DNA of 64,000 nt from Octopus vulgaris (Eukaryota): positions 29,388,001 through 29,452,000 of the forward strand of contig OX597840.1 of the NCBI GenBank assembly GCA_951406725.2. The letters run 5' to 3'. Under the pieces are notes generated by a model. It did not search any database, was not told the origin of the DNA, and was given only the letters and a program-made list of their open reading frames with translations. Position numbers and translations under genes: made by a program. Within the stretch, counting starts at the first letter, position 1, and each line of letters starts with the position of its first letter. Below are positions 1,053 through 59,368 of this stretch, one piece after another.

Positions 1053-1111
1053 ATCACAAACCAGTTTCGTTGTTGCCACTAACGTAGATGTCCGCAACTC
1101 ATCAGTGTGAT
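1053..1111 (-). ncRNA. Type I hammerhead ribozyme motif (mirror copy + strand 1297-1356)
   Basis: Minus strand: AUCACA CUGAUGA GUUG..CAAC GAA AC-UG-GU U UGUGAU; 6-bp stem I, canonical core. Confidence 0.75.
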
Positions 1112-1510
1112 CGTCATGGCAAAATATAATATGCAGAACTATACACGAGACGTCTGCATGAGATTGAACATGTATATAGTTCTACCAATTACGTTTGGGG
1201 TTCTATTGAAAATAAAACCCCAAATTTAATTGGTAGAATTATATACAAGTGCAATCGCATGCAGACGTCTCGTGTATATTATATTCTGCTATGACGATCA
1301 CACTGATGAGTTGCGGACGTTCTATGTAAGTGGTAACAACGAAACTGGTTTGTCATTAATCTATATTTTGTATCTTTTCATTTGTCTTGCTCACTTACGT
1401 TCTGGCATTTGCTAAATTTTCTTGAGAACATTCCTTTCTTAATGGTAAAACCATAGTGGATCTTCTTCTAGCTTAATGGATGTCCACTTACAGGTCATCC
1501 CTTTTATATG
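1053..1510. mobile_element. Fold-back PLE-like terminal repeat remnant (arms ~1053-1190 / 1228-1356)
   Basis: ~135-bp inverted arms, each carrying a hammerhead motif; ends next to (TA)n. Confidence 0.65.
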
Positions 1511-1570
1511 CATGCATATAAGTATATATATATATATATATATATATATATATATATATATATATATATA

Positions 1571-1790
1571 AAGGGAAAGTTTACGAAAATAAATAAAAGA
1601 GGAAGGCAGGTGGAGTAGAAACAAAACAAATGTATTAGTATAGCGCTCAGGAATAGAAATAGAAAAAGTCTTTTACGTTTCGAGCCTACGTTCTTCGACA
1701 GAAAGATACACAGAAAAAAGCAAGGAGAGAAACAAGGAGAGAAAAAAAGGAGAGAAAATAATGCGTGTAGGAGCTAACGATCTATCATAT
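1571..1790 (-). mobile_element. PLE pseudo-LTR fragment in (TA)n with minimal hammerhead variant at 1669-1706
   Basis: UCUUU CUGUCGA A GAAC GUAG GCUC GAA ACGU A AAAGA; same family at 36637-36780 next to a PLE RT. Confidence 0.6.
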
Positions 1791-2204
1791 ATATATATAT
1801 ATATATATATATATATATATATATATATATGTGTGTGTGTATGTATGTATGCATATGTATATATACACATATATATATATACATATACACAAGTATATTT
1901 ATTTATACATATTCATATATAGATACATACATGCACATACACACATACACATATACATAGTGTCGTAAATCCAAAACATTGCTTTTTCAGAAACCGAAAA
2001 AACAGTTCCATCATTCCATAGCAAAACCGTTGTATAACACTTTGAAAATTTTTGTTATCTTGGCACCTGAAGCACCTGGATATACGATAGTTTGACCAAA
2101 AACACCAGGTATTGCAAGCAAAAATAAATATTGAAAAAAGTGCATTTGGCCTAATTTGAACATACGACAGTTTAATATAATAGCAACGATATATATATAT
2201 ATAT

Positions 2205-2425
2205 TATATAAAATCCGTTCTGTCTGTCTGTCTGTCTGTGTGTCTTCTAGGATCTCGGGCATCTTCCATCCGATTGCGCTCTAATTTGATATGTAGATAC
2301 TGATGGTATCAGGGCGTGTATAAGTCTTGAAAAAATTACAAAAATCGATACCAGGTGAGAATGTGACCGATAAAGCCGTGGGAACGTGCATTTGTAGGTG
2401 CAAGTACATCAGCTGTTGCGATCGA
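2205..2425 (+). mobile_element. Probable non-autonomous Helitron 5' part
   Basis: Starts TATATAAAA..(GTCT)n like the complete copies at 39192 and 44898; 3' end absent. Confidence 0.4.
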
Positions 2426-2672
2426 TACGACACGTGTTTCGTGGCTATATTTAAGAAATGATTATACTAAAAACATTAGTAGTAGTAGTAAAATCACTTC
2501 AATATAAATATAGCCACTCATCAGCTTAAAGATAACTACAATAATTAATTAATAAATATAATTAATTAATAAATATGAGTGGCTATATTTATATTGATGT
2601 GATTTTACTACTACTACTAATGTTTTTACTATAATCATTTCTTAAATATAGCCACGAAACACGTGTCGTTAT
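2425..2672. mobile_element. Fold-back element with hammerhead core (minus 2425-2530)
   Basis: CUGAUGA GUGGCUAUAUUUA..UAAAUAUAGCCAC GAA ACACGUGU C; inverted copy 2576-2670 lacks the CUG; stem I not evident. Confidence 0.6.
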
Positions 2673-2894
2673 TCTACCAAATATATACATTTTATTTACT
2701 ATTTTGCACATTACTTAATCATCGTTATATTTTTCATCTTATATCTAATCTTCCTATTATATGTAATTTTCTAAATGGTATAATTTAATTTAATTTTTCA
2801 TTTTGAATTGATAAAGGTGGTTTTTTTCTAATTTATATACATTTTATATATATATATATATATATATATATATATATATATATATATATATATA

Positions 2895-3460
2895 TAATTC
2901 ATAAATGAGGGAAAAGGAAAGAATTTCTAGTGCCAAATATGCCGAAAAATTGGACGTATTGTCCATTAACCATATAATGTTTTCACAATTTGCACGCTAC
3001 TCGAATGGGCTTTTCACAATTCGCATGTGCCTCGAATGGGCTGGAGTATTTCTATTTTGGATGTATTTGGGGTACTTAGTTGTGCCCATGACCTAGTGTT
3101 TGCTTCTTCCATGGTTCGAGTAAGTTTCTCATTTATTTCTTTTACCACATGTATCACTGACGAAGAGAGGGCTGTTATGAACTAACCCTGAAATCGGTTC
3201 GATATGGTAATAATGGAATTTTTTAGAAATTTCTGTCGACCTTTTTTCGAGTAGCATGCGAATTGTGAAAAAATTACATGGTTAATGGACAATATGTCCA
3301 ACTTTTCGGCATATTTGGCATTAGAAATTTTTTCGTTTGCCCTCATTTATGAATAGTTTATAAATTTAACCTTTAAAGGTATTTTTTAATATGCTGGCCA
3401 TTGATAAAATTTTTTTCGAGAAAATATTTTTTTCGAAAAGAATTTTATCCTCACATTTGA
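2895..3460. mobile_element. Fold-back repeat in (TA)n with degenerate hammerhead at 3152-3204
   Basis: Arms ~2897-3005 / 3245-3355; related copies at 55680-55990 and 62710-63000. Confidence 0.6.
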
Positions 3461-56439: not shown

Positions 56440-56762
56440 TCATAAGCGGAATGTGTAACCTCTCGAAAGAGCTGTTCTTCACTCCTGCTCCAGAGCGTCG
56501 GCTGCGGGGTCACTCCGAAAGGCTCTATCTGCGACGATTTCATCTCAATCGAAGGAGAGGGGCTTTCTCTGTCCGGGTTGCGGATCCGTGGAATAAGCTG
56601 CTGGACGAGATAGTGAAGATGCCGATGTCTGCTCGGTTCAAAGTCTCCCTTGACCAGATATGGCCTGAACTCTTTCCATGAACACCCTCCTTGTACATAT
56701 CTCCATGTCCCCCTACATGACCTTGCTTTTCGCTTTTTGAGCCAAAAAATTAACTTAACTTA
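56440..56762 (+). mobile_element. CR1-clade LINE 3' end
   Basis: Near-identical to 12969-13280, (TAACT) tail. Confidence 0.9.
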
Positions 56763-57039
56763 TATATACCATCATCAGTATCATTCAACATCCATAGTCC
56801 ATGTTCACATGGGTTCGATGGTTTGACCAAGGCTGGCAAGCTGGAAGGCTGCACCAGACTCCAGTCTGATTTGGCCCTTCCTAATGCCAACCACTCTGAG
56901 AGTATGACCGGTGCTTTTACAAGACACCAGCATCTGCCATGACTGTGATTTTATTTGGCTTTATGGGTCTTGTCAAGCACAGCATAATGCCAAGGGACTC
57001 AGTCTCTTGTTGTTGCCTCTGTGAGGCTCAACCCTTGAT

Positions 57040-57420
57040 CATCATCATCATCATCATCATCGTTTGGCGTCCGCTTTCCATGCTGGCATGGGTTGGACGG
57101 TGCAACTGGGGTCTGGGAAGCCAGAAGGCTGCACCAGGCCCAGTCTGATCTGGCAATGTTTCTACGGCTGGATGCCCTTCCTAACGCCAACCACTACACT
57201 CGTAGTGGGTGCTTTTTAGATGCCATCGGCACAGGTACCAGACAAGGCTGGCAAACCTCCACGATCGGATGGAGCTTTCTACGTGCCACTGGCACGGAGG
57301 TAGTCGGGGCGGCACTGGCAATGGCAACATTCGGATGGTTGTCTTATGTGCCACTGGCACTGGTATCACAGTATCACTGGTATCACAGCTACGATTGATG
57401 TTGATCGATTTTGATTTTGA
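57040..57420 (-). mobile_element. RTE 3'UTR (family B)
   Basis: Family motifs. Confidence 0.7.
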
Positions 57421-57752
57421 TTTTGATGTACATATATATTAAGTTTACCGTAAATGGTCCTTTTACATACTGAACACTGCTTGGTAAAATTATTAATTAC
57501 TAATTAATTAATTAATTTTACCCTTTATTATTATTGACAATATAATTCTCTCCCTGATAATAAACCACAGATTCTTCTGTAGGAATTTGTTGCTCTATAA
57601 CTCATGTGGGTGGACAGGGGAGGATGCGGAGCCTCATTCATATGTTTTGAATTCGTTAGTACTGGATGTTGAAGGGGGTTTGTCTGAGGCTACTCAAATC
57701 AGATGGGTATGTTCGATTTTTAGTGCTCTCAAATTTAAATCTAATGAAATCT

Positions 57753-57833
57753 TTGTGCTGATGATGGGAATGCTAGAATAGGGATGTATTTCTAGCATCT
57801 CTATATCTGACTAACCCAGAAACGCGTTCACAA
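57753..57833 (+). ncRNA. Type I hammerhead ribozyme motif
   Basis: UUGUG CUGAUGA UGGG..CCCA GAA ACGCGU U CACAA; canonical core, palindromic stem III. Confidence 0.8.
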
Positions 57834-58740
57834 GTAATCTATTTTCGAGTGAACTTTCCTTATTTTTACCCCTATGTCTACGTGAATTGTTTTTGAGTAT
57901 ACATTGTCTGGGAGACTTTTCGTATAGTAGGAGAAATAGCTAAATTATTTGCTGCTATTTCTAAAAGTTCGGTATGTGGTAAAGGAAATTTTTTTGCTGA
58001 ACCCTAATTATATAAAGTATATATATATATAAACATATCAAAGGGAAAAGGAAAATTAATTAATTTTTCACTTCCAGTGGCCTAACGTGTAAAAGTTTAG
58101 TCCCAAACGACTATGTATTAGTCATAAAATACAGTGTACATTTAAACCCATGAGGAATCCACTCGTGGGATTCAACACGCTAGAAAGAACAGCTAGGTTC
58201 TATAACCACAAAAATATATTTTTATATATTTTATATACCTATATATTTATATATTACTTTATACTATATTTTTATGTATTTATTTTCTAGGTGTTGTAAT
58301 GTTTTTTTAAAAAATATATATTTCTTAATCGCTAAAGTATTAACATTACATCACACATTTTTCTCGCACTTTCTTATATGCTTGTACAGATGAGTTATGT
58401 TTCATCTTCCGTGATGTCATAGATGTATATTCTATGATTAAATGTTCGAGATATGAAATGTTACGTGGATGACCCTGTATTTGTTTGTTCTGCAACCGTA
58501 GTTTAATAAATATATACATACACATATATACATATACACACACATGTGTATACATATGACATACCTGAACATGTAATTCCACCTGCACCCTTACATACAT
58601 ACATATATACGTAAATACATCATACACACACATACATACACATACATATATTCAATATGGCACCTCCATGCTAGGTCCAACCCATGCTAGCATGGAGAAC
58701 GGACGTTAAACGATGATGATGATATATATATATATATATA

Positions 58741-58966
58741 CCGGAATAAGCACATAAATGTGAAACAAGGTGGAAAAAAGAGTACTCAAATACCAGAGGT
58801 AGTGTAATATGCTTTATTTAAAAGCAGCAGAAATACAACAAAAGGTGTTACTCAGAGTTTCACATTCCCGTTCGTTGGACAGTTTTTTTTTAAGAAGACT
58901 GTCCGATGAACGGGAACGTGAAACTCTGTGTAACAGCTTTTGTTATATTTCCTTTTAAATAAAGTA
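58741..58966. mobile_element. Hairpin element in (TA)n with U4C hammerhead variant (58899-58936 + and mirror copy)
   Basis: CUGU CCGAUGA ACG GGAA CGU GAA ACUC-U-G(U/A)GU A ACAG. Confidence 0.6.
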
Positions 58967-59044
58967 TATATATATATATATAAATATATATATATATATA
59001 TATATATATATATATATATATATATATATATATATATATATATA

Positions 59045-59368
59045 CGTTTAAATATTTGTTGTGCAAGATTTTTTATGTGAAGTCGTGTGTTGAAACAGAT
59101 ATTGTTGTATTTAGGAATGGTCATTTTGCCAGTTTAGCCAATAAATACAAAATGGCTGACGGTTAGTAAGGAGAGACACAAATAAGTAAGAAGAAAACAA
59201 AGGACCACTGATGCGGTCACAGGAGTGTGACGAAAGAACTCTGCCGAAATAAGATTAAGATTAATGTAAAAAATAAATAACACTGAAGCAAAGTAACACC
59301 AAATATATAGTGCGTGTGTTTTTATTGGCTAAACTGGCAAAATGACCATTCCTAAATACAATAATAAT
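59045..59368. mobile_element. Fold-back element in (TA)n with degenerate hammerhead at 59204-59245
   Basis: Arms 59100-59146 / 59320-59367; CUGAUGC G GUCACA GGAG UGUGAC GAAA; terminus related to 20410-20470. Confidence 0.5.

What the first reader, a model, noticed from the sequence alone, without database searches (positions are those of the whole stretch)
1053..59245. Hidden population of about two dozen hammerhead-ribozyme motifs in fold-back elements within (TA)n tracts
Seen: many short non-coding islands between (TA)n tracts are inverted or partially tandem repeats, and most carry stem I + CUGANGA-like + stem II + GAAA + short palindromic stem III + UH. Loci: 1053/1297, 1669, 2425, 3152, 9480, 14013, 14447, 15587/15907, 16242/16315, 20233/20291, 25132, 36725, 45574/46178, 46574, 47835, 48125, 50813, 55706, 57753, 58899, 59204. 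Stem sequences differ between loci but the architecture is kept. Established: Penelope-like retroelements carry minimal type I hammerheads in their pseudo-LTRs, form partial-tandem and inverted structures, and such motifs can cleave as dimers through palindromic stem III. Inference: a large, diverse radiation of PLE-mobilised ribozyme elements targeting (TA)n, at roughly one locus per 3 kb. The PLE-hammerhead link is known; the density and variant range here may not be.
Basis: partly seen in the sequence, partly recalled or inferred. Interest (0 to 1): 0.85.

Follow-up and report, generated by a model that had tools for sequence, protein, structure and literature searches.

The report
Octopus retroelement hammerheads with swapped cores
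This stretch of octopus DNA is littered with short leftover ends of Penelope-like jumping genes, most carrying a small RNA motif shaped like a self-cutting hammerhead ribozyme, and one abundant family has two paired core letters swapped (G3-C8), a natural variant that likely still cuts slowly, though no cutting has been tested.

Summary
Largely real. 12 of the 26 named motif copies fit a relaxed type I hammerhead descriptor alone (shuffles 1.5, hairpin-preserving controls 0-1). Nine more are decayed members of families that fit, two belong to families with weak stem I, and three are doubtful. Rfam finds none. The motifs sit in 3' ends of about 20 Penelope-like (PLE) families in an octopus genome; six families were tied to RT/GIY-YIG ORFs. 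An arbitrary 0.96-Mb sample gives one motif per 8-13 kb, so the window is about twice the genome average. The new part is family-fixed core variation: one family (16285-/16322+; at least 2,542 copies; open 755-aa ORF) has GUGAACA, a natural G3:C8 swap. Its sister families carry C3:G8 and U3:A8, and other young families fix U4C, A6U, A9C or A13C. The fold-backs are inverted truncated copies predicted to mask the motif in a long hairpin, so they are not dimer-ready, and copy 5' ends do not cluster at the cut site. No cleavage was tested. The PLE-hammerhead link and U3:A8 are published; I found no paper on natural G3:C8, but two earlier notes of this scan saw it in other genomes.

The parts
1053..1111 (-). 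Minimal type I hammerhead motif, canonical core CUGAUGA, 7-bp stem I; left arm of fold-back 1052-1357
   Evidence: relatives in L127
1297..1356 (+). Hammerhead motif, canonical core, right arm of the same fold-back
1668..1707 (-). Motif of the A6U family (CUGUNGA A GAGC..GCUC GAAA CG UA); stem II damaged in this copy
2423..2530 (-). Long-stem-II motif, canonical core, stem I broken in this copy; fold-back 2427-2669 with truncated arm at 2572+
   Evidence: (intact relative L172)
3151..3210 (+). Motif with canonical core, decayed stem II; relatives L203 and L297 fit
9479..9565 (+). Motif fitting alone (score 15.4) with no relative in 1.96 Mb; unresolved
14012..14054 (-). Very young family (40 best copies about 99% identical): UUGAUAA (U3:A8), GCAA (A13C), 2-bp stem I; doubtful as a ribozyme
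   Evidence: endonuclease C-terminal remnant upstream in L243
14445..14483 (-). Motif CCGAAGA A GAGC..GCUC (U4C), back to back with a PLE RT fragment
14668..15002 (+). Broken PLE RT fragment, 69% DNA identity to the Neptune-like element L434 that lies upstream of an A6U motif
15586..15648 (-). Motif, canonical core, bulged stem II; inverted pair with 15906-15968
15906..15968 (+). Motif, canonical core, second arm
16243..16291 (-). G3:C8 motif: UUUGUCA GUGAACA G GUCGC-loop-GCGAC GAAA AUAU UU UGACAAA; predicted cut after base 16249; this arm carries the optional tail
16316..16364 (+). G3:C8 motif, second arm of fold-back 16157-16448 (U16.1 changed to G in this copy); ends at (TA)n without tail
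20230..20272 (-). U3:A8 motif CUA UUGAAAA G GUUGC..GCAAC GAAA AU UU UAG
   Evidence: (39 of 41 rows UUGAAAA)
20287..20329 (+). U3:A8 motif, second arm of fold-back 20110-20444, stem I damaged
25134..25198 (-). Old family motif, canonical core, stem I broken in this copy
36724..36763 (-). A6U family motif CUGUAGA
37012..37847 (-). Broken PLE RT fragment of family X; separated from the 36757 motif by (TA)n and not the same element
40221..40266 (+).
45574..45634 (-). Hammerhead-like but doubtful (UUGACGA, poor stem II); inverted partner at 46178-46238+
46571..46615 (-). Family with CUGANGA (N7 free), C.C at the base of stem II and fixed GCAA; related to the 3' end of intact family X (U3:A8)
47832..47921 (-). 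Decayed copy of a canonical long-stem-II superfamily whose stem I differs between members yet pairs
48122..48191 (+). Doubtful: CUGAAGA present, no fit, one relative
50812..50888 (+). Motif with canonical core and U.U at the base of stem II
55710..55770 (+). Decayed motif of the 3157 superfamily
57752..57834 (+). Motif fitting the strict descriptor, palindromic CGCG stem III
58843..58938 (.). Fold-back pair 58878- / 58903+ (CCGAUGA, U4C in part of the family)
59202..59247 (+). Motif CUGAUGC (A9C) of family Z, which has many copies with open frames up to 1312 aa

Best explanation
These islands are short 3'-end (pseudo-LTR) remnants of about 20 families of Penelope-like retroelements in an octopus genome, most carrying a minimal type I hammerhead motif that likely cuts only slowly and only in tandem full-length transcripts or with the element's protein, while most scattered copies are likely inert. 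Shown: the motifs exceed chance; they lie 0.45-1.2 kb behind RT plus GIY-YIG-type ORFs in long copies; copies end at one of two 3' points (optional tail) near (TA)n; inverted pairs are a truncated copy joined head to head. Inferred: the element's protein nicks AT-rich DNA and reverse-transcribes from an internal start about 40-170 nt behind the motif, on an uncut RNA, and often stops or switches strand just 5' of the motif, which gives the short solo and fold-back copies. Also inferred: selection still acts on the active hammerhead fold in at least one clade, because positions 3 and 8, which pair in the catalytic conformation, have changed together (C:G, U:A, G:C in three sister families). Odds: PLE pLTR hammerhead motifs 0.95; G3:C8 family cleaves measurably as a dimer or with protein 0.6; cleavage needed for insertion 0.25.
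For: Enrichment: 12 vs 1.5 in the window, 86 vs 9-14 in 0.96 Mb. With 3 and 8 left free, 34 of 38 sample hits are Watson-Crick (C:G 26, G:C 4, U:A 3, A:U 1; copies not independent, 7 from one array) against 5 of 15 control hits. G3:C8 family: 35 of 42 rows, 53 of 58 rows (overlapping loci counted twice), 92 of the first 100 of 2,542 exact pattern matches, none C:G, control pattern 0. ORF link: endonuclease C-terminus about 1 kb upstream in 11 of 30 pattern-selected loci; open 755-aa frame in L346 flanked by an inverted copy. Tree: families G (G:C), Z (C:G) and the U3:A8 family form one clade, 100/100. Metagenome relatives: 9 of 19 have a parseable motif, 9 of 9 Watson-Crick (C:G 5, U:A 3, A:U 1) against 0 of 4 control hits. 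Stem covariation: outer stem I pair C:G 12 vs G:C 8 in 28 distinct rows, 96% of cells paired, 0 of 500 shuffles as high, though only that one pair changes on both sides. Families X and Y hit RVT_1 and GIY-YIG. Bimodal 3' ends, and only 3 of 85 5' ends within 5 nt of the cut site. Published parallels: PMC4209133 (min-HHRs, U3-A8, low activity), PMC8557442 (inverted copies, tails, (TA)n), PMC11167929 (internal initiation; protein-assisted cleavage; C3G/G8C partial rescue; cleavage not needed for insertion in vitro).
Against: No cleavage data. All three intact families found by protein homology (X, Y, Z) have non-canonical cores (U3:A8 with A13C in 9 of 11 rows; U4C in 9 of 9; A9C in the copies seen), and A6U is fixed in the commonest family: changes expected from established mutagenesis (recalled) to cut activity, which argues for relaxed catalysis. 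Simple co-folding of two motif copies pairs through stem III only for 57758; for the G3:C8 and U3:A8 motifs it swaps stems I and II instead. P0004 has no Pfam RT or GIY-YIG hit; its PLE status rests on motifs, a weak match to family X (22%, E about 1e-8) and anatomy. 10 of 19 metagenome relatives gave no motif. Five named copies are weak or doubtful.
Confidence: 0.75

Rival explanations
1. The motif is now a structural cis-element (a fold bound by the PLE protein, or one that sets where reverse transcription stops), descended from a hammerhead but no longer needing to cut; core changes drift family by family.
For: Fixed U4C, A6U, A9C and A13C in young, amplifying families; 5' ends of copies cluster just upstream of the motif (9 of 12 in -66..-43 for G3:C8, 11 of 16 in -46..-36 for U3:A8) and not at the cut; ribozyme mutants did not affect insertion in vitro in PMC11167929.
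Against: Repeated joint change of 3 and 8 to other Watson-Crick pairs and kept UH and palindromic stem III are hard to explain without the catalytic fold; N7 varies freely where the consensus allows it (C 11, A 10, U 9 in the 46609 family).
Confidence: 0.3
2. The islands are non-autonomous retrozymes (small tandem elements that make circular RNA), only borrowing PLE proteins.
For: Most copies are 130-300 nt without ORF; a tandem array of about 355-nt period with 7 canonical motifs exists in L091.
Against: No same-strand tandem of a motif in the window; long copies of six families run into RT/endonuclease ORFs; 5' ends vary as truncations do.
Confidence: 0.07
3. Chance hairpins or MITE-like fold-back DNA transposons in AT-rich DNA that mimic a hammerhead.
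For: The relaxed descriptor with two deviations gives many hits in shuffles (30 vs 39 at score >=8); individual weak calls (9485, 48128, 45628) may be chance or relics.
Against: Hairpin-preserving controls give 0-1 hits against 12; arms are asymmetric (tail on one side only) and linked to RT ORFs.
Confidence: 0.03

Closest known systems
Minimal type I hammerheads of Penelope-like elements (Cervera & de la Pena 2014, PMC4209133)
   Same: Type I topology, short stem I, extra base after A9, G10.1-C11.1 in most, palindromic minimal stem III, many heterogeneous families, mostly single truncated copies, opposite-strand pairs 100-700 bp apart, U3-A8 variant.
   Different: No G3:C8, A6U, A9C, A13C or U4C family in the text or the supplementary alignment I read; no cephalopod there; counts reported per genome are 2,000-9,000 against an extrapolated 2-4 x 10^5 here (different descriptors, so not strictly comparable).
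EN+ PLE clades Neptune, Nematis, Hydra (Craig et al. 2021, PMC8557442)
   Same: RT plus C-terminal GIY-YIG, CX2-5CXXC linker, partial tandems, inverted 5'-truncated copies, optional tail, (TA)n targets; U.U or other mismatch at the base of stem II is common in their Hydra list.
   Different: All cores in their file S2 begin CUGA. Families G, Z and U3:A8 have a CCHH-type endonuclease (so not Hydra) with a short linker like the Nematis rows (by eye) but were not placed against named references. Tails here appear longer (about 30-100 nt, imprecise) than the 30-40 bp stated.
Poseidon element PAc of Anolis (Frangieh et al. 2024, PMC11167929)
   Same: Internal start of reverse transcription behind the hammerhead, tail signature, AT-rich targets; C3G/G8C double change partly rescues cleavage.
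   Different: There G3:C8 is a laboratory mutant; here it is the natural state of a whole family.
Natural hammerhead core variants (Perreault et al. 2011, PMC3088659)
   Same: U3-A8 covariation, change at position 6, U10.1-U11.1 mismatch.
   Different: Described as rare; text of that section names no G3-C8, A9C or A13C (figure letters not seen). Here variants are fixed in families of thousands of copies.
Animal non-LTR retrozymes (PMC7229834; bioRxiv 10.64898/2026.07.22.740005)
   Same: Type I hammerheads, PLE-related, very high copy number (up to 120,000 in axolotl).
   Different: Tandem monomers with canonical motifs; the window's loci are solo or inverted PLE ends. One such array was seen elsewhere (L091).

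Membership tests
Penelope-like element (EN+) | RT domain followed by C-terminal GIY-YIG endonuclease upstream of the motif | tested here: met
   Families X and Y: Pfam RVT_1 and GIY-YIG. G, Z, U3:A8, A6U, 14013, 46609 families: ORF or C-terminal remnant upstream. P0004 has no Pfam hit but shows YVDD, CX3CXXC and VYQIKC..YIGET motifs. Other window families not linked.
Penelope-like element (EN+) | Partial tandems or inverted 5'-truncated copies | tested here: met
   (family Y tandem, period 4271)
Penelope-like element (EN+) | Optional tail at one end (two 3' end points) | tested here: met
   Bimodal 3' ends in G3:C8, U3:A8, Z, 15642 and 58903 families; tail on one arm only at 16157-16448
Penelope-like element (EN+) | AT-rich or (TA)n target bias | tested here: met
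   16 of 26 within 300 nt vs 23% at random
Nematis or Neptune clade | RT phylogeny with named members | not testable with these tools
   No named reference proteins among tool sequences; linker spacing compared by eye with Craig Fig. S2/S7 rows: X, Y and L434 Neptune-like; G, Z, U3:A8 Nematis-like
Hydra clade | EN lacks CCHH; linker CxCX5C; DKT and RWK motifs | tested here: not met
   P0004 has two cysteines between the GIY- and YIG-like motifs, later histidines, CX3CXXC linker and DKS
Minimal type I hammerhead (PLE type) | Stems I and II with palindromic minimal stem III and UH | tested here: met
   12 window copies alone, 9 more through their families; not met for 14048, 46609 (stem I) and 45628, 46184, 48128
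Minimal type I hammerhead (PLE type) | Canonical core C3U4G5A6N7G8A9 / G12A13A14 | tested here: not met
   Met in families 1105, 2524, 3157, 15642, 25192, 47915, 50818, 57758; not met in G3:C8, U3:A8, A6U, U4C, A9C and A13C families
Minimal type I hammerhead (PLE type) | Watson-Crick pair between core positions 3 and 8 | tested here: met
   exception 45628 family (U.G)
Minimal type I hammerhead (PLE type) | Site-specific self-cleavage (dimer or protein-assisted) | not testable with these tools
   Only contigs were available
Rfam hammerhead families | Score at gathering threshold | tested here: not met
   0 hits in the window; none at E<=10 for G3:C8; Hammerhead_3 17.6 bits vs 48.5 for 1303
Non-LTR retrozyme | Head-to-tail tandem of a 150-450-nt monomer each with a hammerhead | tested here: not met
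   None in the window; present elsewhere in L091

The most novel reading that the evidence does not exclude
A natural G3:C8 hammerhead, present in thousands of copies of an octopus Penelope-like family with open ORFs, is an active ribozyme; one PLE clade has toggled the tertiary 3:8 core pair through all four Watson-Crick states, and currently amplifying octopus PLEs run on cores (U4C, A6U, A9C, A13C) that standard descriptors reject, so genomic hammerhead counts miss a large class and these families form a natural mutational scan of the core.
Probability: 0.45. Interest if true: 0.7.

Novelty: new variant of a known kind. Interest (0 to 1): 0.52.

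Why it matters
What PLE hammerheads do is an open question: activity in vitro is low and mutants still insert. Here nature supplies matched sister families with C:G, U:A and G:C at the 3:8 pair, plus young families with otherwise damaging core changes, each with an open ORF. 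That makes two things directly testable: whether selection keeps catalysis or only shape, and how far the core can bend. It also suggests that searches fixed on CUGANGA/GAAA undercount these motifs (Rfam finds none here), which may bear on PLE families reported to lack a hammerhead. The fold-back copies would form long double-stranded RNA if transcribed, a possible substrate for editing or small-RNA pathways (inference only).

Tried and rejected
Rfam E-value scan of the window listed only miRNA-type hairpin and microsatellite matches in its top 150 of 509; rejected as chance. The RT fragment at 37012-37847 looked like the parent of the 36757 motif; rejected, since intact family X ends in a different motif. 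Hydra clade for the G3:C8 family: rejected on motifs. Allowing two core deviations did not separate real from shuffled DNA at low scores and recovered only one more named copy. Cleavage footprint in DNA: 5' ends at the cut site are not enriched (3 of 85 within 5 nt; BLAST end points are imprecise). Sequencing runs: no RNA holder listed on record, only Logan contigs, so nothing on expression or cleavage; contigs under two other organism codes hold the element, and one shows the GUGAACA core. Co-fold as a dimer test is crude and mostly uninformative. The representative-protein search gave unnamed proteins, used only to scan the window. Papers not held: Lunse et al., Martick & Scott 2006, Arkhipova et al. 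2017; supplementary file 1 of PMC4209133 was not searched; any of these could mention G3:C8.

Full report
Setting. The window lies on a 40-Mb contig of a 2.8-Gb genome. An RT fragment in it matches Octopus bimaculoides proteins best, and a protein labelled Octopus vulgaris matches the genome at 100%, so this is an octopus. The window is 35% GC with 141 (TA)6+ tracts and holds mostly repeats.

Noticed in passing
L091:2270-4560 (G000 C1 about 20.002-20.005 Mb): Retrozyme-like array, period about 355 nt, with 7 identical canonical motifs, 5 on the plus strand and 2 inverted.
   Followed up: no
G3:C8 and U3:A8 families genome-wide: 5' ends of short copies cluster 0-25 nt upstream of the motif, before the upstream microsatellite begins; may be a transcription start or an RT stop.
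   Followed up: partly
L169 (plus strand): Second, unrelated G3:C8 candidate (GUGAGCA), single copy in the sample.
   Followed up: no
L373 and L369, 3' of the ORF (metagenome contigs): A3:U8 cores in relatives of the G clade; L373 parses, L369 seen by eye only.
   Followed up: partly
L300, L302 (family Y): Intact tandem PLE, period 4271 nt, with a 454-aa ORF overlapping the 775-aa RT frame in another frame, suggesting a frameshift.
   Followed up: no
window 13945-14080 (minus): Very young family: the 40 best copies are 99-100% identical.
   Followed up: partly
window 47133-47738 (minus): 201-aa frame with three C2H2 zinc-finger-like hits behind a stretch that resembles a LINE C-terminus (recalled).
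   Followed up: no
window 11441-11788, 13038-13379, 22591-22905, 25885-26268: Fragments of other mobile elements: weak integrase hit; the others look like LINE and Tc1-type pieces (recalled, no Pfam hit).
   Followed up: no
window 27418-28735 and 32086-33315: Two minisatellites built on 26-nt units with higher-order periods (52/270 and 76/173).
   Followed up: no
window 30666-30895 and 31219-31448: 230-nt inverted repeat, 92% complementary, with no motif called by the descriptor.
   Followed up: no
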